Origin: Bacteroidia bacterium
GTDB lineage: Bacteria > Bacteroidota > Bacteroidia > JABEUT01
Direction: 5' to 3'
Assembly (NCBI GenBank): GCA_052325425.1
Contig: JBKQUY010000025.1
Location: 1,321-65,320 of the forward strand
DNA length: 64,000 bases
Every line of letters starts with the position of its first letter. Position 1 is the first letter of the stretch. Position numbers and translations under genes: made by a program. This document shows, one piece after another, positions 1,781-52,887 of this stretch. Under the pieces are notes generated by a model that did no database searches, was not told where the DNA came from, and saw nothing but the letters and a program-made list of their open reading frames with translations.

Positions 1781-1851
1781 AATACCAGGTAATTGAGTTG
1801 CACAAATTTAATAATTTTGACAACCGTTTAAGAAAGGAGACATAGATATTT

Positions 1852-1917
1852 CGGGGTGTAGCGTAGTCCGGTTAGCGCGTCCCGTAGTACTGCGGGAAGG
1901 TCGGCAGTTCCAACTGC
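1852..1917 (+). pseudogene. degenerate tRNA-like copy 1 (tRNA 5' half + palindromic anticodon region, no 3' acceptor)
   Basis: Same 5' sequence as tRNA-Pro (cggggtgtagcgtagtccggttagcgcg). The anticodon arm is replaced by tcccgtagtactgcggga. The T-loop is degenerate (ttccaac) and the 3' acceptor strand is missing. It is preceded by the same TTGACA...CATAGATAT promoter-like unit. Confidence 0.55.
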
Positions 1918-1999
1918 TTTATTTTCACATTCTTTAGTATCACTGTTGCTCAATTTTAATAATTTTGACAACCCTTTAAGTAAAGGGACATAGATATTT

Positions 2000-2065
2000 C
2001 GGGGTGTAGCGTAGTCCGGTTAGCGCGTCCCGCAGTACTGCGGGAAGGTCGGCAGCTCCAACTGT
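2000..2065 (+). pseudogene. degenerate tRNA-like copy 2 (tandem 146-bp unit)
   Basis: Second tandem unit, with repeat period about 146 bp (1917-2061 vs 2062-2206). Perfect palindrome cccgcagtactgcggg in place of the anticodon loop. No acceptor 3' strand. Confidence 0.55.
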
Positions 2066-2147
2066 TTTATTTTCACATTCTTTAGTATCACTGTTGCTCA
2101 ATTTTAATAATTTTGACAACCCTTTAAGTAAAGGGACATAGATATTT

Positions 2148-2224
2148 CGGGGTGTAGCGTAGTCCGGTTAGCGCGCCACGTTCGGGACGTGGAGGTCGGC
2201 AGTTCGAATCTGCCTACCCCGACA
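2148..2224 (+). tRNA. tRNA-Pro (anticodon CGG)
   Basis: Cloverleaf by eye. Acceptor CGGGGTG/TACCCCG (with G-U). D arm GCGT/..GCGC. Anticodon stem CCACG/CGTGG with loop TTCGGGA (anticodon CGG). T arm GGCAG-TTCGAAT-CTGCC. Discriminator A. Confidence 0.75.
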
Positions 2225-30617: not shown

Positions 30618-31454
30618 ATGAAAAAGAATTTCTTGTTTTTTGGCGCTTTATCATTTGTAGTATTAGGTACTATTACATCATGTAAAAATAGTGAAGGCCC
30701 TGCCATGCCTGCCGAAGAAGTAATAAAGGATAGTGCTAAAGCTACTACCGTTACTAATCTTAACCTGCTTATGAGCAATATCCCTTCACCTTCCGATTTA
30801 TCAAAAGAATTGGCAAAGGAAGGCGTTCAGCTTAATAAAGGAATTCTTAATTCACCCGATAAAGCCGGTAATTACACAGGTACATACCAGCAAGCGGTAA
30901 ATATGGGTATTTACGGGGCCGATATGGGTTATGTTACCAGTTATAACCAGATGCAGGATGCTTCTTCATATATTATGCAGGTAGCCAAACTTGCCGGTGC
31001 GCTTGGCGTTACATCCGCATATGACCAAACACTTATGACTAAATTCAAGAATGCTGTTTCAAATAAAGATTCGTTAAGTGTAGTTATTCAGACTGCTTTT
31101 GACAGGGCACAAACGGAATTATATTCTAACAAACGTGCAGCCACAAGTACTTTAATATTTGCAGGCGGATGGATTGAAGGCTTATATATTGCTACTAACC
31201 TTGTAACAGATGAAAAGAATGATAAAAATGCCGGTATGTACACAAAAATATGGAGCCATGTGTATGCTTTTAGTTATTTGCAAAAGGCTTTAGCTGATTA
31301 CCAGGCAAGCAACACCGACTGTGCTAATATGATTAAAACACTTCAACCTCTGTTCGATATTGCTTCAAAATATTCTGACGCATCTGCTTTATCGCTGCAA
31401 GATATTCAGAGCATTAAACAGGCAGTTACTGATGTAAGAAACAAGCTCATTTAA
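30618..31454 (+). CDS. hypothetical lipoprotein
   Basis: Signal peptide with lipobox (TITSCKN). 278 aa. Confidence 0.5.
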   Translation: MKKNFLFFGALSFVVLGTITSCKNSEGPAMPAEEVIKDSAKATTVTNLNLLMSNIPSPSDLSKELAKEGVQLNKGILNSPDKAGNYTGTYQQAVNMGIYGADMGYVTSYNQMQDASSYIMQVAKLAGALGVTSAYDQTLMTKFKNAVSNKDSLSVVIQTAFDRAQTELYSNKRAATSTLIFAGGWIEGLYIATNLVTDEKNDKNAGMYTKIWSHVYAFSYLQKALADYQASNTDCANMIKTLQPLFDIASKYSDASALSLQDIQSIKQAVTDVRNKLI

Positions 31455-31563
31455 TTGTTGTTAGTTTTATACTAATTATAGTAACTTTTTTTTACTTAAT
31501 TATCATCTTCTGCATCCTGGTAACACCGCCAGGATGTATTGTTTTGGTCAATAGCCGGAATTT

Positions 31564-32037
31564 CTATTGCTGCATTTTCAGCAAAGCGGCAACCTTTTTA
31601 TCAATAGGGAAAGTAAAAGTGCTTTCCGATAATAAATGTATAGGCAACCATCTGAAACTTATGGCCCCTTCTTTAATTTCTGCAAAATCGAATGGCTTTT
31701 CAGATGTATTTAAAGTATATGATGAGGTTGCTTTTATCAGATAATATATGCTTATAACCTGCGCCTTAGGGTTAAATGCAGATACCTGGAAGAAATCTGT
31801 TGTATAAAAATGCCTTATTACTTCTACTGGAATACCGGTTTCCTCAAGCATTTCTCTTTTTATGGCATCAATAGTACCTTCACCAAACTCCAATCCTCCG
31901 CCTGGAAATTTTGTAATGTAATGTTCATGTATCAATTCATCGGCAATAAGAACACGCCCCGTATTATCTGGTAAAAGGCCGTAAACCCGCACATTAAAAG
32001 GGTATGACATAGGATATAAAGGTTTAAGTGTTATCAA
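31564..32037 (-). CDS. NUDIX hydrolase
   Basis: Nudix box GGGLEFGEGTIDAIKREMLEETGI. Confidence 0.8.
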   Translation of the reverse strand: MITLKPLYPMSYPFNVRVYGLLPDNTGRVLIADELIHEHYITKFPGGGLEFGEGTIDAIKREMLEETGIPVEVIRHFYTTDFFQVSAFNPKAQVISIYYLIKATSSYTLNTSEKPFDFAEIKEGAISFRWLPIHLLSESTFTFPIDKKVAALLKMQQ

Positions 32038-32130
32038 AAATACATATATATTACATATAGGAAATCAACAAGGCAATGTTGAGAACACCCTTTAGCGGGT
32101 ATTACTTATGCACTGTAACAATGGGTAATT

Positions 32131-32994
32131 TTGTTAAACTTTATGAACATTGTGAAGCCAATCTTTCGGAATTTACTGCTAATAGGTAGTTTCTCATCTC
32201 TTTTTGCGAACGTTTCAGCCATGTCCGCATTAGAATATATACAGAAATATAAAGATTGTGCCATTGAACAGATGCTGGTATATAATATCCCTGCCAGTGT
32301 TACACTGGCACAAGGTATGCTTGAATCTGACTACGGTAACAGCCCCCTTGCTAAATATGCAAACAACCACTTTGGCATTAAATGCCATGAAGATTGGACC
32401 GGCGATTATTATACTTATGATGACGACCTTAAAGGAGAACATTTCAGAAAATACTCTACTGTTGATGATTCATACCGCGACCATGCCCAGTTTCTTAAAT
32501 CAAGACCATGGTATGCTTTTTTGTTCCATTTTCAACGGACGGATTACCGGGATTGGGCTTACGGGCTTTCGAAAGCCGGTTATGCTACGGCACATGATTA
32601 TTCTCAACGACTTATCAGCATTATAAATGAAAACCATTTATATGTGTTTGATACTGTACTGCAGAACTTACATGGATTTGGCATTCTATATGATGTACCC
32701 CCTGTAATACCAGACCCGGAAACAGCTCCTGAATACGTTATACTTAAAGAAGGAGACGGTATTTATAAAATAGCGAGGCAATATAATGTAGATGTTAATA
32801 CTCTTTGCAGGATTAATGGTATAAGCATCAGTTCCAAATTATGGCCCGGTGAAAAATTGTATTTAAAACCCTTACGCAAACAAAGCGGTATGTTGATTCC
32901 TATACCTATAGAAGTAAAGATACCGCAGGACTTCCATTATGACATACCGGCTGTATTAAGGCGCAAAAATGAACTAATTGAATATACTTCTTAG
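32131..32994 (+). CDS. glucosaminidase (FlgJ-like muramidase) domain protein with C-terminal LysM
   Basis: ASVTLAQGMLESDYGNSPLAKYANNHFGIKC glucosaminidase motif. LysM-like YVILKEGDGIYKIARQYNVDVNTLCRINGI. Confidence 0.7.
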   Translation: MLNFMNIVKPIFRNLLLIGSFSSLFANVSAMSALEYIQKYKDCAIEQMLVYNIPASVTLAQGMLESDYGNSPLAKYANNHFGIKCHEDWTGDYYTYDDDLKGEHFRKYSTVDDSYRDHAQFLKSRPWYAFLFHFQRTDYRDWAYGLSKAGYATAHDYSQRLISIINENHLYVFDTVLQNLHGFGILYDVPPVIPDPETAPEYVILKEGDGIYKIARQYNVDVNTLCRINGISISSKLWPGEKLYLKPLRKQSGMLIPIPIEVKIPQDFHYDIPAVLRRKNELIEYTS

Positions 32995-33008
32995 CGCGCG
33001 CGGAAAAC

Positions 33009-34613
33009 TTATTTAGGAATGTGAGTGAGGTAAATATCCTGGTTTATCTCTGTTTTAAATGAGCCTTTATCTTCAATATTCAGGTCCTTTTTATATTCGG
33101 TGAATCCATCTGTAATTATACTTACATGATATTTTCCCGGCGGCAATATCATTACATACCTGCCTGTTGTGCCATTAGGAACATAGTTTCCATATAGCTC
33201 ATTCGTTTTTGCATCACTTATGCTAATCATTATATCGCTGAAGTTTTTAATTTTCGCTGATGTATCGGCGCTCTGAACGAGCCCAATAACAACAGAATAT
33301 AATTGTTCAGCGTTATTGAATTTTATCCTGTAAACATCAAGCCCTCCGTATCCACCCTTCCTTACTTGCGAAATATAGCCATAACTGCCATTAGCGGCAA
33401 TCCTGAAATTCATATCGTCATCGGGCGTATTTATGGGATAGCCCATATTTTGTACGGATGACCATTGATTGGCAGAATCACTCCAGTTAGCTTTAAATAT
33501 ATCGTAACCACCCATGCCTGTATGCCCTTGCGAGCTGAAATATAAAGTTTTTCCATCCGGCGAAATATTAGGGAAATCTTCGTTGCTTGGAGTATTAATT
33601 ACAGGGCCAAGGTTTTGCGGAACTCCCCAGCCTCCGTTAGGAAGTTTTTTAGAAACATAAATATCAATTCCACCAAGTCCGCCGGGACGATCGCTGGCAA
33701 AGTATATGGTACTCCCGTCCGCAGTGATTGACGCGGCTATCTGGTGCTGGTTTTTTTGGTTGATTACTTCTGGCAAAGCCATAGGAGTGCTGAAGCTTTT
33801 TCCTCCATCATCGGTAGAAGAGAAGATGCTTCCGAATCCTTTTTTATCAAAATAATAGAACAGCATGTAATCGCCTTCTTTAGATAAGCCTACTACTTCT
33901 GAGCTCTTGCCTGCCGCATCAATAGGAGGCCCAATATTAACCGCAGGCTGGTATTGCCCATCGCTTACATAAGATATATATATAGAAGGTGAAAAATTAT
34001 TTGCGCTGACTTTTTGCTTACCTGCTCCGCCACGTTTGCTGTTAAACACAATAAACGACTCATTGGTCGGAACAAAGGGGTAGTAATCATCATAGGGCGA
34101 ATTAATGTTTTTCCCTAAATTTTCAAAGGTTATATTAACCGGGAATTTCATCAGTTCCTTGGCATTCATGCAATATTGAATCTGAACCTCTGCATCCTTC
34201 ATATTATCAGGAGAACCTTTTCCCTCCTCCTTAAAATCATTGAATGTTTTAATGGCATCATCAAACCTGTATGCAAATTGATAGGCCCTGCCCAATAAAT
34301 AAAGGGTATTCGGGTTATGTTTTTTCAGGTGGGCAACCAGCTCAAGGTATGGTATTGCCTTTGTTTTATCAATATTGGTATTAAGATAACATACGCCCAG
34401 GCGGTAATTATAGAGGTCATTATCAGGGTATTTATCCACCAGGGTCAGGTATGCTTCAAGGGCATCATCAAAGTCTTCATCTGAAAAATAGTTATCGGCA
34501 TCTGTAGCACTGGCAGTAACCATATCACCAGTCTGGGCGAGAACGGGTACAAAGACTATGGAAAATAATATACTTAACGTAAGTATAATTATACTTTTAG
34601 GCATAAATATCAT
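33009..34613 (-). CDS. TPR + TolB-like WD40 beta-propeller repeat protein with C-terminal carboxypeptidase-regulatory-like domain
   Basis: Signal peptide. TPR N-terminus. Repeated GG.DIY blades similar to 11732..13753 but without an OmpA domain. Confidence 0.7.
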   Translation of the reverse strand: MIFMPKSIIILTLSILFSIVFVPVLAQTGDMVTASATDADNYFSDEDFDDALEAYLTLVDKYPDNDLYNYRLGVCYLNTNIDKTKAIPYLELVAHLKKHNPNTLYLLGRAYQFAYRFDDAIKTFNDFKEEGKGSPDNMKDAEVQIQYCMNAKELMKFPVNITFENLGKNINSPYDDYYPFVPTNESFIVFNSKRGGAGKQKVSANNFSPSIYISYVSDGQYQPAVNIGPPIDAAGKSSEVVGLSKEGDYMLFYYFDKKGFGSIFSSTDDGGKSFSTPMALPEVINQKNQHQIAASITADGSTIYFASDRPGGLGGIDIYVSKKLPNGGWGVPQNLGPVINTPSNEDFPNISPDGKTLYFSSQGHTGMGGYDIFKANWSDSANQWSSVQNMGYPINTPDDDMNFRIAANGSYGYISQVRKGGYGGLDVYRIKFNNAEQLYSVVIGLVQSADTSAKIKNFSDIMISISDAKTNELYGNYVPNGTTGRYVMILPPGKYHVSIITDGFTEYKKDLNIEDKGSFKTEINQDIYLTHIPK

Positions 34614-34680
34614 TTGAGGTTATAAAAATATAAAAAAGATTTGTCATTAACACAATCTATTAACTTTGTACAACCAAAAA

Positions 34681-34780
34681 GCGGAAGTAGCTCAGTTGGT
34701 AGAGCATCCTGACGTTCACAGTCAGGAGGTCGCGGGCCCTGACGCTTGGTCAGGGTGCTGACTGTAGCGTCAGCATTCGA
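34681..34780 (+). pseudogene. tRNA-Gly-derived tRNA-like pseudogene carrying three consecutive CTGAC/GTCAG hairpins
   Basis: First 26 nt identical to tRNA-Gly (gcggaagtagctcagttggtagagca). Followed by cctgac-gttcaca-gtcagg, ccctgac-gcttg-gtcaggg and gctgac-tgtagc-gtcagc. No acceptor 3' strand. Same upstream ttaactttgtac motif as the real tRNA. Confidence 0.55.
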
Positions 34781-34839
34781 AAAAAGCCCTATTCTTATAT
34801 AATATGTGAGGCTTTCTATTAACTTTGTACTGTCAAAAA

Positions 34840-34912
34840 GCGGAAGTAGCTCAGTTGGTAGAGCATCAGCTTCCCAAGCTGAGGGTCGCGGGTTCGAGCC
34901 CCGTTTTCCGCT
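34840..34912 (+). tRNA. tRNA-Gly (anticodon CCC)
   Basis: Acceptor GCGGAAG/TTTCCGC. Anticodon stem TCAGC/GCTGA with loop TTCCCAA. T arm GCGGG-TTCGAGC-CCCGT. Upstream TAnnTTTG-like motif (ttaactttgtac). Confidence 0.8.
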
Positions 34913-34977
34913 CTTAAGAAAAATATTAGCTACTTTAAGTTTATATATTATTTTCATTTTTGTCAGCTCACTCTATA

Positions 34978-35388
34978 TTACTTGCGTTTTGAGCGCATAG
35001 CTTTTAAGTGCCGGATACTTTTGTCCTTAGAAAATTTTTTATACTCCTCTGAATCTGTTGAATAAATGGCTATTTTCCCATAGGAGTTGCTATGAACGCC
35101 CCATGCATAGCGCTTTGTCAATGGAGAAGAACGAAAACAGGCTTGTCCTTTTGAAAAGAATTTTTCCAACTCTTTTTCTATATCAGAGTCTTTAATATTA
35201 TTTCTTATTGCAAATACGCTAAATAGTATTTCATCAGATGTATATTTATATGGATTATTCTTTATCATTTCAAATTGAATGTTTGCAACGGTCTTAACAC
35301 CATTCTTCAGAGGTGGTGTTTCTGAAACTTTTATAGGACAATCCTCTGCAACCTCGATAAATGTATTGAAATAGTTTGTGGTCTTCAT
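34978..35388 (-). CDS. hypothetical protein (136 aa), likely co-transcribed downstream of the Exo-GIY-YIG gene
   Basis: 30-bp gap after 35419..36783 on the same strand. No recognisable motif. Confidence 0.45.
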   Translation of the reverse strand: MKTTNYFNTFIEVAEDCPIKVSETPPLKNGVKTVANIQFEMIKNNPYKYTSDEILFSVFAIRNNIKDSDIEKELEKFFSKGQACFRSSPLTKRYAWGVHSNSYGKIAIYSTDSEEYKKFSKDKSIRHLKAMRSKRK

Positions 35389-35418
35389 ATCAGTATAGTT
35401 TCATAAAGTATAATCAAA

Positions 35419-36783
35419 TCAAAGCAAAATCTTTCTTAACGTTTTCGATTTTAAATACCCCCTTACCAGGTTATCCTGGTCGGCGTAATAGGTTGTGTGC
35501 TTAATAAGCTCTTTCAGTTCAGCAGGGTTTTCCATTTGTGTAGATGTATCAAAATAACCGTAACCGGCATAGTGGCCATCTTCAATTAATATAAGCGATT
35601 GTTCATCGGGCCTCCTTCCTTTGTCTATTACCATGAAATTTTTCTTTCCAAAAGAATATTCCTCCACTAACGTGTTGGCGCGCTGGTTATATAATTCTAC
35701 TGTTTCAAGTCCTGCACATATCCCATGACATTTTTTTATCTGGTGGTTAAAGCATACCTCATCTTCCGAAAGCCCGCAATATTTAAGGCAAAGCGAGTAT
35801 TCATCCATCCATGACTCTAAACGCTTCAATGCCGCTATATGTGTTGTAAATGCCTGCAACGAATTCCCTGCTTCATCATAAGGAGCTATTTTAAAATTTA
35901 TTATTCCCTGCTTATCCTCGTACCAATTGATGCTGTGGGTAAATATATCCGCCTTTTGAGCTCTGTTAAAATATGGTTTGTGTTTTTTAATTTCTTCTGT
36001 TTCCAATAATAATGCTATTATTTCGCTGCCTGTAAGTTCAAATTCCACATTGTACAGTTCATTCAGCATCTTTTTGCCTTTCCTTTCGTGGTTGTTAAAG
36101 TGGCTCATGGCGCGGTTATATATATTGGTTGACTTACCTATGTATATAATTTTTCCTTCTTTGTCGAGGAAATAATAGACGCCGCATTCTTCGGGCAATT
36201 TCTTCAGCACATAATCCTTTATCTTGTCAATCCTTCTGGCCATCAGTTCATCAACACCCATTTTGCGGTATTGCGGGTTCTGTGATTTTACCTGCAACAA
36301 AAGGTCGAACAATTTGGCAGTAGCCTCTGCATCGCCAAGCGCCCTGTGCCTGTTTTCAATGGGTATATTTAATGAAGCGCATAAATGCCCGAGGCTGTAT
36401 GATATTCTTTTCGGCAGTAATTTACGGCTAAGTCTTACTGTGCATAACTTTTCCCTCCTGAAATTATATCCCAAAAAGGCAAACTCTTCTTTTATAAAGC
36501 TATAATCGAAGCCTACATTGTGTGCGACAAATATTTTTCCTTCGGTCAGCTCTACAATCTGCTTGGCCACCTGGTGAAAGTGAGGCGCATCGGCAACCAT
36601 ATCATTTGTAATGCCTGAGAGGTTACTGTAAAACCCGCTGATATAACAGCCGGGGTTAATTAGCGTTGAGAACCTGTCTACCACCTGTAACCCATCATGA
36701 ATAAGTATGGCAATATCTATTATTCTCCCCTGGGGATGGCGGAATTTTGACCCACAGGTCTCTATATCTACTATGGCGAACAT
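35419..36783 (-). CDS. DEDDh 3'-5' exonuclease (DnaQ-like) fused to a GIY-YIG (UvrC/Cho-like) nuclease domain
   Basis: N-terminal Exo I motif FAIVDIETCG and later H..ALGDAEAT. Central GIY-YIG GVYYFLDKEGKIIYIGKSTNIYNRAMSH. Confidence 0.8.
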   Translation of the reverse strand: MFAIVDIETCGSKFRHPQGRIIDIAILIHDGLQVVDRFSTLINPGCYISGFYSNLSGITNDMVADAPHFHQVAKQIVELTEGKIFVAHNVGFDYSFIKEEFAFLGYNFRREKLCTVRLSRKLLPKRISYSLGHLCASLNIPIENRHRALGDAEATAKLFDLLLQVKSQNPQYRKMGVDELMARRIDKIKDYVLKKLPEECGVYYFLDKEGKIIYIGKSTNIYNRAMSHFNNHERKGKKMLNELYNVEFELTGSEIIALLLETEEIKKHKPYFNRAQKADIFTHSINWYEDKQGIINFKIAPYDEAGNSLQAFTTHIAALKRLESWMDEYSLCLKYCGLSEDEVCFNHQIKKCHGICAGLETVELYNQRANTLVEEYSFGKKNFMVIDKGRRPDEQSLILIEDGHYAGYGYFDTSTQMENPAELKELIKHTTYYADQDNLVRGYLKSKTLRKILL

Positions 36784-36968
36784 ACGTTATTGCAAAGATA
36801 TGCCAAAGCAATTCAAATTTCAGAAAAAAATTGAATTGCGAATAATGATTAACGAATGATGATTAACGAAGTAAACCAGGCGACAATTTTTTGTTGTCCT
36901 TACATTATTCCATAGTGAATACTTTTTATCTCAATTTTAGGTTTAATCCTCATTATCAACTACTTAAA

Positions 36969-37067
36969 CGGGTTTACACTTTTTGACCCTTCTAAACATG
37001 CAATTACTTGGTAATCAAATATATAGTTTTTTAAAACCCCTGAAAAGTGTAAACCCGTGTAAACCCG
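36969..37067. repeat. ~100-bp inverted-repeat-bounded element, copy A (MITE-like)
   Basis: cgggtttacactttttgaccc...ccctgaaaagtgtaaacccgtgtaaacccg. The termini are inverted repeats (gggtttacacttttTGACCC / GGGGtgaaaagtgtaaaccc). About 85% similar to the copy at 52775..52874. Confidence 0.6.
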
Positions 37068-37514
37068 TTGCATAAATTAAAAACTGCACATTTTTGTCCC
37101 GCAATATATGCGGGATGCAATTTTTTTCCATTTTTTTGCTGAATTTTGTTAGCATTATTTTAAAATTCATTTTTAACACAGAGTCATTACGCTTCGGTTA
37201 TGATGCTGATATTTATCGTCAGCAAGCACTGAGAATAAAACTTCACAGAGGTTCACAGATCTTAATTCGTAATTAACTACCGCCAGGTCACCAATGTTTT
37301 TCATTTTTCACTTTTGGCTTTTCACTTAATAATGCAAATATAAACAATTTATTAATATAATATGAAAATATAATTTATTAAATTATCAACAACCACGGAT
37401 TATTTCAATCGAAGATGATTAGCATCAGTGAATAATCCGTCCAATCTGTGTCATCAGTGTTCTATTTGTATTGATAAAAACAAACCATAAATTTGAATCT
37501 TTTCAAATAGCGTT

Positions 37515-41116: not shown

Positions 41117-41261
41117 CTCTTCATATTGCCCTGTCTAACATACGTATCCGCAACAAAGGTAAAAAGTCTGAGCAGAAAGGCCTGGTTAAATCTATTGCTG
41201 TTTTCATTCCGAATAATATTTTCATTGAGCTATTGATAAAATTTGTACTACCTTTGTCCTG

Positions 41262-41335
41262 ACTTTAGGGGTGCTGTTAAGCTGAGATTATACCCTCAAG
41301 ACCTGATGCAGGTAATGCTGCCGAAGGGAAAAAGC
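41262..41335 (+). promoter_or_regulatory. TPP (thiamine pyrophosphate) riboswitch
   Basis: ttaGGGGTGCtgttaaGCTGAGAttataCCCtcaagACCTGATgcaGGTAATgctgccgaagGGAA. Contains the conserved CUGAGA, ACCUGAU and GGUAAUACC-like elements of the THI-box. Upstream of thiS-thiC. Confidence 0.85.
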
Positions 41336-41419
41336 GAGTTCCATCTCAGTTTATTATTCATTCCTGGTTACTTTAGCTAATGGCCAATGGCTGATAGCTG
41401 ATGGTTAATACATAAAAAC

Positions 41420-41667: not shown

Positions 41668-43584
<1,917 letters not shown>

Positions 43585-43641
43585 GCCCTTTGAATAATGA
43601 ACAGCAAGGCTCTCACGAATTCCTTGAAATAAATTAGAGAT

Positions 43642-44355
43642 ATGAGTAATATCGAACAAGGAATATCGAATAATGAAATAAACAACCAGAGTGAAAACTT
43701 CGGCGTTCAGCATTCAATGTTCAATATTCGATATTCTGCCCTTAAATTAGTTGTTATATCGCCCGAAAGTACCGTTGAAAATGAAACGGAAATGGTTAAT
43801 GCCCTGTTCAAAGAAGGATTAGCATATTTTCATTTGCGTAAACCTGGTTTCACTGCTAAAGAGCAGGAGCAATATCTTTCTGAAATTGAACCAAGGTACT
43901 TGAAAAATATCACTCTGCATCAACACCACAGTATTACTTTGAATAATCAAATATCCAGGCTTCATTTTAAGGAGCATGAGAGAGAAAGCATGGATATTTC
44001 AAAGAAGAAAGCAGGTATGCTTTTTTCAAGTTCAATACATGATACTGAAAATCTCTTCTCTTGGGGAGATTCAGAGGGGCAGTCTTCTTTATGGGATTAT
44101 GTTTTCCTTGGCCCTGTATATAGCAGCATATCAAAACCGGGTTATAGAAATCAAGCTCTTGAGAATATTGTATTGGAAAAGAGAGATGGAACACCTAAAA
44201 TAATTGCAATCGGAGGAATTGATTCATCCAATGCAGAGAATGTATTAAAAAGAGGTTTTGATGGTATTGCGGTATTGGGCGCTATCTGGAATGCCACCAA
44301 CCCCCCGGTGGGAACTTTGAGCACATTTAAAACATTACAGGCAATATGCAATTAA
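43642..44355 (+). CDS. thiamine-phosphate synthase-family protein (ThiE/TenI-like, divergent)
   Basis: TIM-barrel ThiE-like motifs (YFHLRKP..., IAIGGI). Second ThiE-family gene in the operon, so possibly TenI-like. Confidence 0.6.
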   Translation: MSNIEQGISNNEINNQSENFGVQHSMFNIRYSALKLVVISPESTVENETEMVNALFKEGLAYFHLRKPGFTAKEQEQYLSEIEPRYLKNITLHQHHSITLNNQISRLHFKEHERESMDISKKKAGMLFSSSIHDTENLFSWGDSEGQSSLWDYVFLGPVYSSISKPGYRNQALENIVLEKRDGTPKIIAIGGIDSSNAENVLKRGFDGIAVLGAIWNATNPPVGTLSTFKTLQAICN

Positions 44356-45134
44356 ACAGGCCCATAGTGTTAAGTATTGCAGGATACGACCCATCAGCAG
44401 GAGCAGGGCTGCTGGCTGATATTAAAACCTTTGAGCAGCATAAAGTTTATGGTATGGGAATAATTTCATCTCTGACTTTTCAGACAGAAAATGAGTTTTT
44501 TGATGTAAAATGGATAAATGAAAAGGAGATTATTTCTCAATTAGAGAAGTATTTAAAACACTTTCAGATTAAGGTTGTAAAATTCGGGTTGATGAAAAAC
44601 TGGCGGATTTTAAATAACATAACAGGTTTAATAAAAGGCTTTAATGAAAAAATAAAAATTATTGTTGACCCGGTATTAAAGCCATCGGCAGGCAATAACT
44701 CATTTTTAGCGGGAGATAAAAAAATGATATTATCTGTATTGAATAAAATTGACCTGCTTACGCCAAACTATGATGAGGCAGTATTTTTGGGTAATAATAA
44801 AGATGGAATTGACGGGGCAAAAGAATTATCAAAATATTGCAATATATTTTTAAAAGGTGGGCATAATCCTAAAAAACCCGGTACCGATTATTTATTTACC
44901 TGTAATTGTAGAGACGCCATGCATGGCGTCTCTACAATGCATGGCGTTTCTACCATGACCCCCAATTCAACAAAAATATTTCCCAAACATGGTTCCGGCT
45001 GCGTGCTATCGGCTGCCATAACTGCAAATCTTGCTTTAGGATTTGAACTGCATGAAGCATGTAAAAATGCCAAGCAATACACTGAAAAATTTTTGAATAG
45101 CAATAAATCTTTATTGGGATACCATGTACAATAG
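44346..45134 (+). CDS. thiD: hydroxymethylpyrimidine/phosphomethylpyrimidine kinase ThiD (carries an in-frame palindromic insertion)
   Basis: VLSIAGYDPSAGAGLLADIKTF, ...HGSGCVLSAAI. About 12 extra residues (CRDAMHGVSTMHGVSTM) relative to canonical ThiD between the LFT and HG(T/S)GC motifs. Confidence 0.85.
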   Translation: MQLNRPIVLSIAGYDPSAGAGLLADIKTFEQHKVYGMGIISSLTFQTENEFFDVKWINEKEIISQLEKYLKHFQIKVVKFGLMKNWRILNNITGLIKGFNEKIKIIVDPVLKPSAGNNSFLAGDKKMILSVLNKIDLLTPNYDEAVFLGNNKDGIDGAKELSKYCNIFLKGGHNPKKPGTDYLFTCNCRDAMHGVSTMHGVSTMTPNSTKIFPKHGSGCVLSAAITANLALGFELHEACKNAKQYTEKFLNSNKSLLGYHVQ

Positions 45135-45813
45135 ATTACAATACATTTCGCAGGGTTCAACTATAAATGAGCATATCCGCAATATAAATCTTGCTTTGGA
45201 TAATGGATGCAGGTGGATACAATTACGAATTAAAGCCCCCCTTCCCCCCGAAAGGGGGATACCTGAAGGAGCAATATTTGTCCCCTCTTTGGGGGGTAGG
45301 GAGGCTGCACTTAAAGTAAAGCAATTATGCGCCTCTTATAAAGCAACATTTATTGTTAATGATTATATAGATATTGCAAAAGAGGCCGATGCTGATGGAG
45401 TCCACTTAGGGTTACAAGATAGTTCTGTTGCCAATGCAAGAGAAGTATTAGGCAGCAAGAAAATAATCGGGGGAAGCGCCAATACTTACTCCGATTGCCT
45501 TATGCGGATAAAAGAGGGCTGTAATTATATAGGCTTAGGACCTTTCAGATATACAACTACAAAAGCAAAACTCAGCCCCATACTGGGAACTGAAGGCTTC
45601 AGGAAAATCATGTCGCAGTTATCTCTTGATAAAAATGCCCCGCCGGTTTATGCAATTGGCGGCATAGTGGCAGAGGACGTTGAAGAGTTGATGGATACGG
45701 GTATATATGGGATTGCTGTTTCCGGCGTTATAACCAATGCCACAGATAAGAAACAAATTATAAAGTCATTAAATTTTAAACTGAACCAAAAGCATGTTAA
45801 CCATAGCCGATAA
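45124..45813 (+). CDS. thiE: thiamine-phosphate synthase ThiE (with GC-rich in-frame insertion)
   Basis: IQLRIK...FIVNDY...GVHLGLQD...GGIV motifs. About 13 extra residues between LRIK and FIVNDY encoded by GC-rich hairpin-forming DNA. Confidence 0.85.
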
Positions 45814-46588
45814 ATCATTTACATCAAGGTTATTTTTAGGTACCGGCAAATTTTCTTCCATGCAGGTAATGGCCGATGCAGTGCTGGCATCGGGTTCCGA
45901 ACTGGTAACTCTTGCATTAAAAAGAGTAGATACCAAAAGTCTCACCTCAAGGGGAGATTTAGAGGGGCATGCCCAGGATGACATGGTAAACTATTTAAAC
46001 CACCCTCATATACAATTGCTGCCCAATACTTCGGGAGTGAGAAATGCCAAAGAAGCTGTTTTTGCCGCGCATTTGGCCCAAGAGGCGCTTGGAACAAAGT
46101 GGCTGAAATTAGAAATCCATCCTGACCCGCGCTACCTTATGCCGGATGGGGTTGAGACGCTTAAAGCAACAGAAGAATTGGCAAAGGAAGGCTTTATCAT
46201 TTTGCCTTACATACATGCCGACCCTGTTTTATGCAAACGGCTTGAAGACGCCGGGGCCGCGGCTGTAATGCCTCTTGGCTCACCTATAGGAAGCAATAAG
46301 GGGTTAAAGACAATTGACTTTTTAGAAATTATTATAGAACAAAGTAATGTGCCGGTAATTGTTGACGCGGGTATAGGCGCACCGTCAGACGCAGCCAAAG
46401 CTATGGAAATAGGCGCCGCCGGAGTTTTAGTAAATACCGCAATTGCAGTGTCTCGTAATCCGGTAGAAATGGCATGTGCATTTAAGCAAGCTGTTGAAGC
46501 CGGAAGAACAGCCTACCTGGCCGGATTGGGAAAAATTTCAGCTACGGCATATGCATCGAGCCCGTTGACTGCTTTTCTTGATGAATAA
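45794..46588 (+). CDS. thiG: thiazole synthase ThiG
   Basis: [21 protein letters not shown]-terminus. 264 aa. Confidence 0.88.
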
Positions 46589-46675
46589 TGAATTGAAAAT
46601 GAGAAACGGTGAAAAATATATAGGCAGTGTAATGTCTCTCTCCTTTTACAAGGAGAGAGATAAAAGAGTGAGGAT

Positions 46676-47794
46676 ATGAATAATTTCGCGCAAATATTTG
46701 ACAGCTATAACTGGAAGGAAGTAGAGCAAAGCATTTACTCAAAGAGGGAAGATGATGTTTTGCGCGCATTGGTCTCCGATAAGCTAACACCCGAAGATTT
46801 TAAAGCCCTTATTTCTCCTGCCGCTGCCCCATTTTTAGAGCAAATGACATTGAAAAGCAGGCAACTTACATTAAAGCGCTTTGGAAATACCATACAGCTT
46901 TATGCGCCTATGTACCTGAGCAATGAGTGTAATAATATATGCGTCTATTGCGGATTCAGTTTCGACAATAAAATAAGGCGAAGAACCCTTACCATGGAAG
47001 AAATTTCAAAGGAAGCGGCTGCAATAAAACAAATGGGCTTCGATCATATCTTGCTTGTTACCGGGGAAGCTTTTCTTACAGTCAACCTGCCTTATTTTAC
47101 AAAAGCTATTCAAACTATCCGCCCTTTTTTCTCAAACATATCAATCGAGGTGCAGCCTTTGGAAGCAGAGGAATACGCTAAGTTGCACAACGAGGGACTT
47201 TATGCCGTTTTGGTTTACCAGGAGACATACAATAAGGAGAACTATAAAAATTATCACCCGAAAGGGAAAAAATCTAATTTTTATTACCGGCTTGATACTC
47301 CCGATAGGATTGGCCAGGCAGGCATACATAAAACAGGGCTCGGCGTTTTACTTGGCCTTGAAGACTGGCGCACCGATTCATTCTTTTGCGCCCTGCACCT
47401 CGATTATCTCACAAAAAAGTACTGGCAAACAAAGTACTCCATTTCATTCCCCCGGATACGGCCTGCAGAAGGCGTTCATATTGACAAGAAAAATATTACG
47501 GACAAAGAACTGGTGCAATTAATAACTACTTACCGTTTATTTAATGAAGATGTGGAGCTATCTATGTCAACACGCGAATCGCAGAAATTCAGAAATAATA
47601 TCATCAAATTGGGAATTACATCCATGAGCGCCGGTTCAAAGACTAACCCCGGCGGATATGCAGTTGAGCCCGAATCGCTTAAACAATTTGACATTGATGA
47701 TACCCGCACACCGCAGGAAATGGTTGAAATTATCAGGATGCAGGGATATGAGCCTGTTTGGAAAGACTGGTTTCAATTGAAAATGGAAAGTTGA
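46676..47794 (+). CDS. thiH: 2-iminoacetate synthase ThiH (radical SAM)
   Basis: CNNICVYCGF radical-SAM Cx3Cx2C motif. 372 aa. Confidence 0.85.
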   Translation: MNNFAQIFDSYNWKEVEQSIYSKREDDVLRALVSDKLTPEDFKALISPAAAPFLEQMTLKSRQLTLKRFGNTIQLYAPMYLSNECNNICVYCGFSFDNKIRRRTLTMEEISKEAAAIKQMGFDHILLVTGEAFLTVNLPYFTKAIQTIRPFFSNISIEVQPLEAEEYAKLHNEGLYAVLVYQETYNKENYKNYHPKGKKSNFYYRLDTPDRIGQAGIHKTGLGVLLGLEDWRTDSFFCALHLDYLTKKYWQTKYSISFPRIRPAEGVHIDKKNITDKELVQLITTYRLFNEDVELSMSTRESQKFRNNIIKLGITSMSAGSKTNPGGYAVEPESLKQFDIDDTRTPQEMVEIIRMQGYEPVWKDWFQLKMES

Positions 47795-47899
47795 AAATGG
47801 AGAATTATAAAAACATAATAATAATACGCCTTAGAAAGTGTTTATCACTTTCAATTTTCAATTTTCAACTTTCAATTATTGTTTTACTATTCACTACTT

Positions 47900-48610
47900 A
47901 TGCTTAGCCAGGCAGAATTTAACCGCTATACCAAACACCTTATGCTGCCTGAAATCGGGTATGATGGGCAGGTTAAAATTAAATCTGCGCGTGTGCTTGT
48001 AATTGGCGCCGGGGGCTTAGGTTGCCCTGTTTTACAATATTTAACTGCGGCAGGTATCGGAACTATAGGTGTTGCCGATTTTGATGTGGTTGATATGACA
48101 AACCTGCAAAGGCAGATTTTATATACAGATGATGATATTGGAAAACATAAAGCAGATATTGCTATAAATAAGATTTCCAAACAAAACCCCAATGTAAAAT
48201 TGATTCCTTTCAAAACTCTTATTGATGAGAGTAATGCACAGGATATTATCAGCCAATTTGATATTGTAATTGATGGCTCTGACAATTTTTTGACGAGATA
48301 TATTGTAAATGATGCTTGTGTCAGCTTAGGCAAACCGCTTGTTTATGGCAGTATTCTGGGGTTTGAGGCGCAGGTAGCGGTATTTAATAATATTGGGAGC
48401 AAAAATTTACGCGATATATTCCCCGAACCGCCAAATCCTGAAGAAGTGCCAAACTGTTCTGAGAATGGTGTATTGGGTACCGTTACGGGCATTACAGGTT
48501 GCCTGCTTACCCATGAAGCAATCAAAGTTATCTTAAATATTAGCCCTATGCATAATCAACTGCTTGTAATTGACCTGGTTAATTTTGGAGTTACAAGGAT
48601 TGATTTCTGA
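47900..48610 (+). CDS. thiF: ThiF/MoeB-family sulfur-carrier adenylyltransferase
   Basis: LSQAEFNRYTKHL..., VLVIGAGGLGCPVLQYLTAAGIG Rossmann motif. The ORF-track start at 47879 is TTG. ATG at 47900. Confidence 0.8.
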   Translation: MLSQAEFNRYTKHLMLPEIGYDGQVKIKSARVLVIGAGGLGCPVLQYLTAAGIGTIGVADFDVVDMTNLQRQILYTDDDIGKHKADIAINKISKQNPNVKLIPFKTLIDESNAQDIISQFDIVIDGSDNFLTRYIVNDACVSLGKPLVYGSILGFEAQVAVFNNIGSKNLRDIFPEPPNPEEVPNCSENGVLGTVTGITGCLLTHEAIKVILNISPMHNQLLVIDLVNFGVTRIDF

Positions 48611-49358: not shown

Positions 49359-49643
49359 TTAACGATTTTCGATATTAGAAGTGAGATACAATAATTTGTA
49401 TTCTTTTATTAAATCAAGTTTTTCTTTTCTTGAATATTGTTTTAATTCATATTCATGCTTGCAGGCTTCCGACCTTGAATCAAACGAGCGTGTATAAAGA
49501 ACTTTTACCGGCGCTCTGCCTTTAGTGTACTTCGCTCCTTTGCCGGTATTATGTTTAGTTATTCTTTCTTCTATATTATTGGTGGTACCAACATAAAATG
49601 TTTTATCTGAACATTCTATAATATATGTGTACCAGACTTGCAC
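49359..49643 (-). CDS. GIY-YIG nuclease family protein (94 aa, stand-alone)
   Basis: YTYIIECSDKTFYVGTTNNIEERITKHNTGKGAKYT. Confidence 0.8.
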   Translation of the reverse strand: MQVWYTYIIECSDKTFYVGTTNNIEERITKHNTGKGAKYTKGRAPVKVLYTRSFDSRSEACKHEYELKQYSRKEKLDLIKEYKLLYLTSNIENR

Positions 49644-52662: not shown

Positions 52663-52774
52663 TTCACTCTTACTTTTTAGTTAGGGATAAGGAGTAAGGG
52701 ATATGGGGTAAGGAATAAGTATTGATAAGGATTTTAGCAAAAACATTGATAACATTGATAATCAGTTATTTAAC

Positions 52775-52874
52775 TTGGGGTTACACTTTTTGACCCCTGT
52801 AAACAGTTAATGCGTTAAAAATCAATATATTAACTAAAAAAACACCTCAAAAAGTGTAACCTTGTGTAACCCCA
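52775..52874. repeat. ~100-bp inverted-repeat-bounded element, copy B (MITE-like)
   Basis: ttggggttacactttttgacccctgtaaaca...cctcaaaaagtgtaaccttgtgtaaccccaa. Same termini and architecture as 36969..37067. Confidence 0.6.
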
Positions 52875-52887
52875 ACTGAACCACTGA

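What the first reader, a model, noticed from the sequence alone, without database searches (positions are those of the whole stretch)
36969..37067. ~100-bp element with 20-bp terminal inverted repeats present in two copies (second at 52775-52874): candidate MITE
The two copies share GGGTTTACACTTTTTGACCC...(AT-rich core)...AAAAGTGTAAACC with the outer repeat duplicated at the 3' end. One sits in a divergent promoter region, the other between convergent gene ends. This is consistent with a mobile miniature inverted-repeat element rather than a gene-specific operator.
Basis: seen in the sequence. Interest (0 to 1): 0.5.

Follow-up and report, generated by a model that had tools for sequence, protein, structure and literature searches.

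The report
Dispersed iteron-array repeat, not a classical MITE
The two ~100-bp copies are real members of a widespread, apparently undescribed Bacteroidota intergenic repeat: phased 8-10-bp protein-binding sites around an AT-rich, IHF-like centre, using the same sites as the arrays next to the helicase gene of Tn4555-like mobile elements, so it looks like an orphan replication-origin-type site rather than a transposase-driven MITE.

Summary
Window 36966-37069 and 52774-52876 are two same-orientation copies of one element: one inverted 10-bp site, a 53-bp AT-rich core, then two tandem sites.

It belongs to a large family, with 18 loci in reference genomes and at least 120 metagenome loci, several per genome and never inside long ORFs.

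The MITE reading is only partly supported:
- There are no target-site duplications.
- No transposase or autonomous partner was found.
- Copies within one genome are only 55-77% identical.
- 18% of copies have no inverted site.

What is conserved is geometry. Sites lie 9-11 bp apart, arm-to-arm distances fall in two classes one helical turn apart, and 75% of copies carry a central IHF-consensus motif.

The same tandem sites form 3-direct plus 3-inverted arrays directly after an AAA_25+HTH helicase-like gene in Tn4555-like integrative elements. There the site sequence co-varies with the protein's HTH helix. This parallels the phage P4 ori/crr and PICI origins.

My best reading (confidence about 0.4) is an orphan, origin-like iteron array read in trans by such mobile-element proteins. 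Both window copies sit exactly at synteny breakpoints and are absent from relatives. How the element spreads is unknown.

The parts
36966..37069 (+). Copy 1 of the repeat element (whole unit)
   Evidence: Profile hits at 36966-37067 (E = 9e-16) and 36967-37071. Sequence.
36970..36979 (-). Copy 1 left site GGGTTTACAC. It is the inverted orientation of GTGTAAACCC.
36954..36966 (+). TATCAACTACTTA. An exact match to the IHF consensus WATCAANNNNTTR, just outside the left site.
   Evidence: A comparable motif precedes copy 2 and the L021 copy.
36990..37042 (.). Copy 1 AT-rich core, 53 nt and 26% GC against 39.6% for the window. It contains AATCAAATATATA at 37013-37025, one mismatch from the IHF consensus.
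   Evidence: The central motif is conserved family-wide.
37047..37066 (+). Copy 1 right arm. Two tandem sites GTGTAAACCC at 10-bp period (37047-37056 and 37057-37066).
   Evidence: (family D6).
52774..52876 (+). Copy 2 of the repeat element (whole unit)
   Evidence: Profile hits at 52774-52876 (E = 5e-18) and 52774-52874. Sequence.
52777..52786 (-). Copy 2 left site GGGGTTACAC. This is the variant site type, TGTAAC instead of TGTAAAC.
52797..52849 (.). Copy 2 AT-rich core, 53 nt and 25% GC. It has an exact IHF-consensus match, AATCAATATATTA, at 52820-52832.
52854..52873 (+). Copy 2 right arm. Two tandem sites, GTGTAACCTT and GTGTAACCCC, at 10-bp period.

Best explanation
The element is a compact protein-assembly site on DNA. 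It is a short array of 8-10-bp iterons (GTGTAAACC[C]; variants GTGTAACC and GTGTCAACC). One to three iterons lie on one side, and two or three tandem iterons at 9-11-bp period lie on the other. Between them is an AT-rich centre carrying an IHF/HU-type bending motif.

[quoted passage not shown] Its iterons are the ones found in arrays directly downstream of the AAA_25+HTH (DnaB_C-like) ATPase gene of Tn4555-like integrative mobilizable elements of Bacteroidota.

I infer that the dispersed ~100-125-bp units are orphan, non-autonomous cis-sites. They would be read in trans by the C-terminal HTH of such mobile-element helicase/initiator proteins, with a host HU/IHF-like protein bending the centre so that the two arms are bridged.

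Shown here: the anatomy, the phasing, the family, the shared iterons, the co-variation of iteron with HTH helix in the mobile elements, and the absence of transposon hallmarks.

Inferred only: that the HTH protein binds the sites, that the orphan copies are bound in vivo, and what follows from binding (initiator titration, local replication, or nothing). How copies reach new loci is not known.
For: 1. Geometry is conserved while sequence is not.
- Tandem right sites are spaced 9 (88 copies), 10 (30) or 11 bp (12).
- The distance from the inverted site to the last direct site falls in two classes, 85-87 nt (34 copies) and 95-97 nt (67 copies). That difference is one helical turn.
- The central motif sits 56-58 nt from the last site.
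- The two window copies keep identical spacing with only 26 of 53 core bases identical.
- Copies within one genome are only 55-77% identical.

2. The IHF consensus WATCAANNNNTTR occurs in 101 of 135 distinct copies, at the centre. It occurs in 0 of 216 equal-length flank segments and in about 3.5 of 135 shuffled elements.

3. The same double site with the same preceding A-run (AAAAAGTGTAAACCAGTGTAAACCC) heads an array of 3 direct plus 3 inverted sites. This array lies between an AAA_25+HTH_7 gene and a Zn-ribbon/DUF6371 gene in locus L113.

4. Ten homologous modules from IMG/VR and a circular 10-kb Bacteroides fragilis cfxA element (integrase, excisionase, mobilization gene) carry the equivalent array at the same place. 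Their iterons are TGTAACAC, TGTTCAC or TGTCCCA.

5. The last HTH helix of the protein differs by iteron type: SHMKVSR, SLGAVNK and SRVTIYN.

6. Within one dispersed copy, all sites change together.
- Window copy 1 uses TAAAC and copy 2 uses TAAC.
- The copy in a relative (L021) uses TCAAC in all three sites.
- L013 uses GCCTTTACAC / GTGTAAAGGC.
- So closely related genomes, and even one contig, hold different site specificities. That is expected if sites track diverse mobile-element proteins, and unexpected for one host factor.

7. The P4 record annotates crr as 120-bp units just downstream of the alpha gene. Each unit has tandem TGTTCAC(A/C) iterons at 9-bp period plus inverted ones. The PICI ori description is in PMC6092414, Fig. 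2 legend.
Against: - No dispersed copy (0 of about 140 loci, about 1.3 Mb) lies next to an AAA_25/HTH, DUF6371 or integrase gene.
- Similarity to the mobile-element array is limited to the A-run plus the double iteron. It is not extended homology.
- Only one mobile element with exactly the TGTAAACC iteron was found (L113).
- Arrays in the mobile elements have no AT-rich spacer between the direct and inverted sets.
- I could not test whether genomes carrying dispersed copies also carry a matching mobile element.
- Binding and replication are untested.
- Whether Bacteroidota HU-family proteins recognise the proteobacterial IHF consensus is unknown to me.
- The element was not found on plasmids in PLSDB.
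- Orthologous copies evolve at about the rate of their flanks: 72-74% identity against 66-76%. That gives no sign of strong purifying selection.
Confidence: 0.4

Rival explanations
1. A true MITE or REPIN-like non-autonomous transposable element. The inverted sites would be transposase- or recombinase-binding ends, with an IHF-assisted hairpin or synapse (as in Correia elements or BIME-1/RIP). An unidentified enzyme encoded elsewhere in the genome would move it.
For: - Multi-copy, dispersed, always intergenic, with unrelated neighbours.
- Subfamilies specific to lineages.
- Both window copies are absent from relatives and sit exactly at synteny breakpoints.
- Inverted arms are present in 82% of copies.
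- A central IHF-like site, as in Correia and RIP elements (the comparison is from my own knowledge).
- Multiple subterminal sites are typical of Tn7- or Mu-like ends (own knowledge).
Against: - No TSD at any consistent offset. The best 4-mer signal, 11 of 105, comes from the conserved A/T runs. No repeat of 5 nt or longer occurs in more than 5 of 105 copies.
- No autonomous copy or transposase was seen.
- Within-genome identity is only 55-77%, with conservation limited to motifs.
- 24 of 135 copies have all sites in direct orientation.
- Almost no extra copies in about 900 kb of flanking DNA, so copy number is modest.
- Copies are retained at orthologous loci across 80-95% flank identity.
Confidence: 0.2
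2. A host-serving DNA site. The array would bind a chromosomal HTH protein together with an HU/IHF-like protein, and act in nucleoid organisation, as a boundary or insulator, or as a (bidirectional) transcription stop between genes.
For: - Motif-and-phasing conservation with free spacers is what selection on binding sites produces.
- Orientation bias: the double-site end faces a gene's 3' end in 86 of 129 cases. In co-directional gene pairs the split is 39 to 18. My own binomial estimate is p of about 0.01, ignoring some orthologous redundancy.
- Convergent contexts are enriched (34 of 108) and divergent ones are rare (17 of 108).
- In the Mucilaginibacter-type subfamily the left arm is a perfect A-tract/palindrome/T-tract, AAAAAGTGGGTTTACATGTAAACCCACTTTTT. 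That looks like a two-way intrinsic terminator.
Against: - Different site specificities occur in one contig and in close relatives. That is hard to square with a single host factor.
- Copies are absent from the orthologous loci of relatives.
- Patchy distribution: 18 loci in the scan of 185,579 species genomes with the strict pattern.
- Orthologous copies are not more conserved than their flanks.
- The window copies carry no terminator-like signal.
Confidence: 0.2
3. A structured RNA: a small RNA gene or a REP-like 3'-UTR hairpin that stabilises or terminates transcripts. The inverted arms would form the closing stem.
For: - Both strands of both window copies fold better than shuffles, with z between -2.9 and -5.0.
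- Compensatory differences keep the outer stem: ACGGGT/ACCCGT in copy 1 against TTGGGG/CCCCAA in copy 2.
- Copies often lie just after gene 3' ends.
Against: - No Rfam family matches at gathering or permissive thresholds.
- 18% of copies lack any inverted arm.
- The tandem duplicate of the arm also co-varies, although it cannot pair at the same time as its neighbour.
- The signal is strand-symmetric.
- No conserved Bacteroidota promoter motif is visible in the consensus (my reading).
- The invariant stem pairs in the alignment were imposed by the search pattern.
Confidence: 0.1
4. Inert relics. These would be decayed leftovers of integrated Tn4555-like elements or plasmids (their origin or iteron region), with no current activity and no mobility of their own.
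For: The iterons are shared with the mobile-element arrays. Orthologous copies drift at the rate of their flanks.
Against: - More than 130 independent loci keep the same complete architecture and spacing, with no other trace of mobile-element genes beside any of them.
- The arrays in the mobile elements have a different layout: 3 + 3 contiguous sites with no AT-rich centre.
Confidence: 0.1

Closest known systems
Phage P4 ori/crr type-1 iterons (bound by the alpha primase-helicase) and PICI/SaPI replication origins
   Same: - Short iterons of the form TGTxxAC, in tandem at 9-10-bp period, together with inverted copies.
- The P4 crr is a ~120-bp unit lying just downstream of the helicase gene.
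[quoted passage not shown]
- One mobile-element subgroup here uses TGTTCAC, the P4 iteron core.
   Different: - The dispersed copies are orphans. They occur several times per chromosome and are never beside a replication gene.
- The associated Bacteroidota protein is AAA_25/DnaB_C-like with a resolvase-type HTH. By my own knowledge P4 alpha is instead an SF3 primase-helicase, so the relation is analogy, not homology.
- No replication function has been shown.
Tn4555-like / NBU-like integrative mobilizable elements of Bacteroidota (integrase, HTH_17 excisionase, AAA_25+HTH ATPase, DUF6371, Mob)
   Same: They carry arrays of the same class of site, 3 direct plus 3 inverted at 9-10-bp period, at the AAA_25/DUF6371 junction. 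L113 has exactly the TGTAAACC tandem pair with its A-run.
   Different: The window element has no genes, has an AT-rich IHF-like centre between its arms, and shares only the sites with those arrays. I did not find any published role for the array in these elements.
Correia elements (Neisseria) and E. coli BIME-1 / RIP-RIB elements
   Same: Intergenic repeats of about 100-150 bp with inverted arms around a central IHF-binding site, often at gene ends (from my own knowledge).
   Different: - Correia elements have 26-bp TIRs and TA duplications. None are seen here.
- REPs carry a GTAG motif and are associated with RAYT genes. That motif is absent here and the association was not testable.
- Here the arms are iterated short sites, and 18% of copies lack inversion.
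Chromosomal or plasmid initiator-titrating site clusters (E. coli datA/DARS with an IHF site; P1 incA; P1 parS with ParB boxes around an IHF bend)
   Same: Non-coding clusters of initiator- or partition-protein sites combined with an IHF bend, acting away from the origin (from my own knowledge). This is the closest functional model for orphan arrays.
   Different: Those are single, specific loci tied to a resident replicon's own protein. Here there is a dispersed family with several specificities and no identified resident protein.

Membership tests
MITE (non-autonomous DDE-transposon derivative) | Small, non-coding, multi-copy and dispersed | tested here: met
   Units are about 100-125 bp. 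18 loci in reference genomes and at least 120 in metagenomes. At least 6 copies in MAG AM3_bin-0905, at least 7 on contigs of the Ga0209437 series and at least 13 on JACXTT01 contigs. 0 of 140 copies lie inside a long ORF.
MITE (non-autonomous DDE-transposon derivative) | Terminal inverted repeats | tested here: inconclusive
   Both window copies have 14-20-bp inverted arms. However, 24 of 135 distinct family members have no inverted site, and the 'TIR' is one of 3-5 iterated sites.
MITE (non-autonomous DDE-transposon derivative) | Target-site duplications flanking the ends | tested here: not met
   A scan of all offsets (0-15 nt on each side, k = 3-9) in 105 copies found no repeat of 5 nt or longer in more than 5 copies. 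The 4-mer excess comes from conserved A/T runs. None is visible at the window copies.
MITE (non-autonomous DDE-transposon derivative) | A cognate autonomous element or transposase with the same ends | tested here: not met
   No recurrent neighbouring gene family: the largest cluster holds 6 of 441 neighbour proteins. No integrase, AAA_25 or DUF6371 homologue occurs in the loci. Only held flanks were examined, not whole genomes.
MITE (non-autonomous DDE-transposon derivative) | Near-identical copies from recent transposition, and filled/empty site polymorphism | tested here: inconclusive
   Within-genome identity is 55-77%. Both window copies are absent from relatives, but synteny is broken exactly there, so there is no clean empty site. 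In Mucilaginibacter-like lineages the copies are retained at orthologous loci.
Iteron-type replication origin or accessory site (P4 ori/crr, PICI ori) | Three or more short repeated sites at helical phasing | tested here: met
   Typical copies have 1 inverted plus 2-4 direct sites. Tandem spacing is 9-11 bp in 130 of 132 copies.
Iteron-type replication origin or accessory site (P4 ori/crr, PICI ori) | Iteron sets flank an AT-rich (melting or bending) region | tested here: met
   The window cores are 25-26% GC against 39.6% for the window. The IHF-consensus centre is present in 75% of copies.
Iteron-type replication origin or accessory site (P4 ori/crr, PICI ori) | Lies in cis next to the gene of the initiator that reads it | tested here: not met
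   0 of about 140 dispersed copies are next to such a gene. The mobile-element arrays themselves do meet this.
Iteron-type replication origin or accessory site (P4 ori/crr, PICI ori) | Bound by the initiator and supports or controls replication | not testable with these tools
   This needs binding and replication assays. The only indirect support is the co-variation of the HTH helix with iteron type in the mobile elements.
REP / BIME / REPIN | Palindromic REP units with a conserved GTAG, and an associated RAYT gene | tested here: inconclusive
   No GTAG-type motif appears in the consensus. The presence of a RAYT gene in the host genomes could not be examined.
Any Rfam RNA family | A match to a curated covariance model | tested here: not met
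   No match at gathering thresholds in the window or in 14 family loci. Only chance-level hits appeared at E up to 10.

The most novel reading that the evidence does not exclude
Bacteroidota chromosomes may carry a dispersed family of orphan 'mini-origins' or decoy arrays. Their iterons match the replication/excision modules of Tn4555-like integrative elements, with several specificities per lineage. These arrays would interact in trans with the initiator-helicases of incoming or resident elements. One outcome is titration or handcuffing of those proteins, a chromosomal incompatibility-type brake on mobile elements. Another is local in-situ replication of the adjacent chromosomal DNA when an element is induced. 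Either way, mobile-element activity would be coupled to specific chromosomal loci, and perhaps to the rearrangements seen at both window copies.
Probability: 0.2. Interest if true: 0.8.

Novelty: new variant of a known kind. Interest (0 to 1): 0.55.

Why it matters
If the reading holds, this is a kind of bacterial interspersed repeat defined by phased initiator-type binding sites plus a bend, rather than by transposon ends or an RNA fold. It would also be tied to one of the commonest classes of Bacteroidota mobile elements, which includes the Tn4555 family that carries cfxA beta-lactamase.

It yields three concrete, testable objects:
- A roughly 100-bp DNA element.
- A candidate reader, the C-terminal HTH of the AAA_25 ATPase.
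- A clear specificity code: TGTAAAC, TGTAAC, TGTCAAC, TGTTCAC, TGTCCCA.

These can be used to ask how such elements replicate or excise, and whether chromosomes use orphan sites to restrain or exploit them.

On the practical side, the family marks synteny breakpoints and could confuse operator, terminator or MITE annotation in Bacteroidota genomes.

Tried and rejected
- **Known RNA.** Rfam gave no family at gathering or permissive thresholds on both copies, the whole window and 14 family loci.
- **Gene-specific operator or regulon.** Neighbouring genes are unrelated, and the element is absent upstream of the orthologous exonuclease and PIF1 genes and downstream of YjeF in relatives.
- **Composite or island reading of the 16 kb between the copies.** The content is housekeeping: PIF1 helicase, acyltransferase, a TPP riboswitch with the thi operon, TPR-SpoIIE and SiaC. 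There are no mobility genes. The outer flanks are not adjacent in relatives.
- **Phage origin.** Viral-contig matches to the pattern are unrelated hairpins.
- **Plasmid origin.** There are no PLSDB matches apart from chance AT-rich hits.
- **Invertible promoter.** No conserved Bacteroidota -7 box (TAnnTTTG) is visible in the family consensus. Copy 1 alone has TATATTTG on the minus strand (my reading). Many copies lie between convergent genes.
- **Literature.** An exact-sequence search and keyword searches found no description of the element.
- **Consensus-structure covariation on the first alignment.** This was uninformative, because the invariant stem was imposed by the search pattern.
- **Source contig look-up.** The exact-protein look-up for the exonuclease returned nothing. 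The source was later identified as a Bacteroidia MAG contig of 88,760 nt through 100% protein hits.
- **Solved structure.** A search for the AAA_25+HTH protein gave no match.

Full report
**1. The observation**

Both copies exist as described.
- Copy 1 spans about 36966-37069 and copy 2 about 52774-52876.
- They are in the same orientation.
- Each has one inverted 10-bp site, a 53-nt core of 25-26% GC, and two tandem 10-bp sites.
- Copy 1 reads GGGTTTACAC ... GTGTAAACCC GTGTAAACCC.
- Copy 2 reads GGGGTTACAC ... GTGTAACCTT GTGTAACCCC.

The site spacing is identical in the two copies, with the right sites 75 and 85 nt from the left one. The core has no indel, yet only 26 of its 53 bases agree.

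The shared words are far above chance and occur nowhere else in the 64 kb.

The differences between the copies are matched in all three sites and in the outer stem: ACGGGT/ACCCGT in copy 1 against TTGGGG/CCCCAA in copy 2.

- Copy 1 lies in a 730-bp divergent region between an RNase_T/GIY-YIG exonuclease gene and a PIF1-family helicase gene.
- Copy 2 lies between the convergent ends of the SiaC gene and the NAD(P)H-hydrate dehydratase/epimerase gene, 14 bp from the latter's stop.

**2. A large family**

An exact composite pattern found 18 loci in the species-representative genome set. About 14 of them are clearly the same element.
- Six are in one Bacteroidetes MAG (AM3_bin-0905).
- Two are in MAG bog_950.
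- Four are in Mucilaginibacter.
- The rest are single loci.

Practically all of them carry the whole unit.

A profile search over about 1.3 Mb of held sequence gave 140 copies.
- There was almost never more than one copy per 7-14-kb locus, so copy number per genome is modest. At least 7-13 exact-pattern copies were seen in two assemblies.
- None lies inside a long ORF.

Neighbouring genes are unrelated. The largest neighbour family holds 6 of 441 proteins.

There is no Rfam family for it and no literature hit for the sequence.

**3. What is conserved**

Copies in one genome are only 55-77% identical. The conserved parts are as follows.

(a) The 8-10-bp site.
- A typical copy has one inverted plus two to four direct instances.
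- The tandem instances are 9, 10 or 11 bp apart in 130 of 132 copies.

(b) The arm-to-arm distance.
- It falls in two classes, 85-87 nt and 95-97 nt, one helical turn apart.

(c) The central motif, consensus about TTGATTATCAATTnnTTA.
- It matches the IHF consensus WATCAANNNNTTR in 101 of 135 distinct copies.
- The same consensus matches 0 of 216 flank segments and about 3.5 of 135 shuffled elements.
- It sits at a fixed 56-58 nt from the last site.

(d) The A- and T-runs that border the sites.

Twenty-four of the 135 copies have all sites in direct orientation, so an inverted repeat is not a defining feature.

This pattern of fixed geometry with free spacers indicates a protein-DNA assembly with a bend. 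It is not what recently copied transposons or a single RNA hairpin would leave.

**4. Tests of the MITE reading**

- *Target-site duplication.* None emerged from a scan of all offsets in 105 copies.
- *Autonomous partner.* No transposase, integrase or other recurrent gene flanks the copies.
- *Presence or absence at copy 1.* Relatives sharing 79-90% protein identity with the exonuclease have tRNA-Pro/AhpC-type or other neighbours upstream, and no element. Relatives of the PIF1 gene (75-77%) have the shikimate operon upstream, a 142-211-bp spacer, and no element.
- *Presence or absence at copy 2.* Relatives of the YjeF-type gene (78%) are collinear with the window from 64000 down to that gene's stop. 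They then continue with Sua5 or a glycosyltransferase gene after 28 bp or less.

Both copies therefore lie exactly at synteny breakpoints. The 16 kb between them is housekeeping DNA that is located elsewhere in relatives. This rules out conserved orthologous placement for this lineage. It provides no clean empty site, however.

In Mucilaginibacter-like lineages the copies are retained at orthologous loci across 80-95% flank identity, and they drift at about the rate of their flanks.

One diverged copy in a relative of the window genome (L021, 339-439) has GGGTTGACGC / GTGTCAACC / TTGTCAACCC. All three of its sites have again changed together.

**5. The lead to a reader protein**

One metagenome hit, L113, is not a dispersed copy.
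- There the same A-run plus double site (AAAAAGTGTAAACCAGTGTAAACCC) starts at the stop codon of a 355-aa AAA_25 (DnaB_C-like) ATPase that has a C-terminal resolvase-type HTH.
- It continues as three direct GTGTAAACC and three inverted TTTACAC sites at 9-10-bp period.
- It ends just before a Zn-ribbon/DUF6371 gene.
- An HTH_17 excisionase-like gene lies upstream.

Eleven homologous modules were then recovered.
- Ten came from IMG/VR, with tyrosine integrase, HTH_17, AAA_25+HTH and DUF6371 genes.
- One is a circular 10-kb Bacteroides fragilis element carrying cfxA, a mobilization gene, an integrase and an excisionase. That makes it a Tn4555-like mobilizable transposon.

All of them have the equivalent 3+3 array at the same junction, and essentially nowhere else in the element. 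The site is TGTAACAC, TGTTCAC or TGTCCCA according to lineage.

The last helix of the protein's HTH differs between iteron groups: SHMKVSR, SLGAVNK and SRVTIYN. From this I infer that the HTH reads the iterons.

Window copy 1 uses the TGTAAAC type found in L113. Window copy 2 uses the TGTAAC type of the largest mobile-element group.

Similarity between the dispersed element and L113 does not extend beyond the A-run and the double site. What is shared is a site class and its tandem arrangement. Extended homology is not shown.

**6. Comparison with known systems**

The P4 record annotates crr as two 120-bp units immediately downstream of the alpha (primase-helicase) gene. Each unit has tandem TGTTCAC(A/C) 'type 1' repeats 9 bp apart, a T-rich spacer, and inverted repeats.

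The dispersed element has this architecture in miniature. It differs in being orphaned and multi-copy.

Correia elements and E. coli BIME-1/RIP units also have inverted arms around an IHF site (from my own knowledge). They differ in TSDs, in arm structure and in the associated enzymes.

**7. Verdict**

The element is real and belongs to a widespread repeat family for which I found no description. The name 'MITE' fits only in the loose sense of a small dispersed non-coding repeat.

The best-supported mechanism, at a confidence of about 0.4, is an orphan origin-type iteron array. One arm plus a tandem arm would be bridged across an HU/IHF-type bend. The array would be recognised in trans by HTH-helicase proteins of Tn4555-like integrative elements.

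Rivals and their confidences:
- An as yet unlinked transposase or recombinase, that is a true MITE or REPIN (0.2).
- A host-serving binding or terminator site, favoured by the orientation bias (0.2).
- A structured RNA (0.1).
- An inert relic (0.1).

Binding, any effect on replication, and the way copies spread remain untested.

Noticed in passing
window 30780-36800 versus 590-2223; loci L019, L021, L023, L027: Relative to four related genomes, the block from the exonuclease gene to the NUDIX gene is inverted. It is also separated by about 33 kb from its ancestral neighbours (the AhpC-TSA/DUF4369 genes and tRNA-Pro-CGG, now at window 590-2223). One inversion end coincides with copy 1. No element copy was found at the other end.
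   Followed up: partly
window 37095-37125: A terminator-like hairpin (TGTCCCGCAATATATGCGGGATG followed by a T-run) lies on the plus strand 30 nt downstream of copy 1, inside the 730-bp intergenic region. That region has no homology to the corresponding regions of relatives.
   Followed up: partly
window 41257-41347: A TPP riboswitch (Rfam RF00059, 63 bits) lies upstream of a thiC-thiE-thiD-thiE-thiG-thiH-thiF-like operon at 41749-48610.
   Followed up: yes
window 34840-34913: The tRNA-Gly(CCC) gene lies inside the mechanical ORF 34610-34957 (minus strand), which is therefore probably not a gene. A DUF6157 gene (34978-35388) sits between the tRNA and the exonuclease gene. It is absent at that place in relatives.
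   Followed up: partly
window 52679-52706 and 52742-52759: Just upstream of copy 2 there are two short tandem repeats: AGTTAGGGATAAGG / AGTAAGGGATATGG, and AACATTGAT twice. A similar tandem (ATGATTAACGA-like, about 36843-36870) lies upstream of copy 1.
   Followed up: no
L177 (CP103138.1) 1007-1069; L162-L171 just after the AAA_25 gene stop: Tn4555-like elements carry a conserved 3-direct plus 3-inverted iteron array at the junction of the AAA ATPase and DUF6371 genes. In the B. fragilis record the array lies inside the annotated 3' end of the ATPase CDS. The iteron sequence and the ATPase's last HTH helix change together between lineages.
   Followed up: partly
Metagenome loci L052, L089, L093, L110, L131 and others, right flank +1 to +40: Many Mucilaginibacter-type copies are followed by a further conserved stretch (ACTTTTTAACAAAATGGCnGCCTGTTCAGG), and then by the stop codon of a convergent gene. 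Either the repeat unit extends beyond the sites in this subfamily, or there is a preferred target sequence.
   Followed up: no
Metagenome loci L041, L063, L103, L104, L130, L139 and others: A second, unrelated dispersed palindromic repeat (GGGTGTCATGCTGAGCTCCGTCGAAGCATGGTGGG...) recurs near several copies. It produced many cross-locus flank matches.
   Followed up: no
Loci L014, L013, L012, L008 (55-90 nt outside the single-site end): Extra solitary sites (GGGTTTACACTTT, or its complement) lie a fixed short distance outside several copies. L004 has an extra IHF-like motif there. The functional unit may be larger than 100 bp.
   Followed up: no
window 49359-49643: A small stand-alone GIY-YIG domain ORF (94 aa, minus strand) lies between the thi operon and the TPR-SpoIIE gene.
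   Followed up: no
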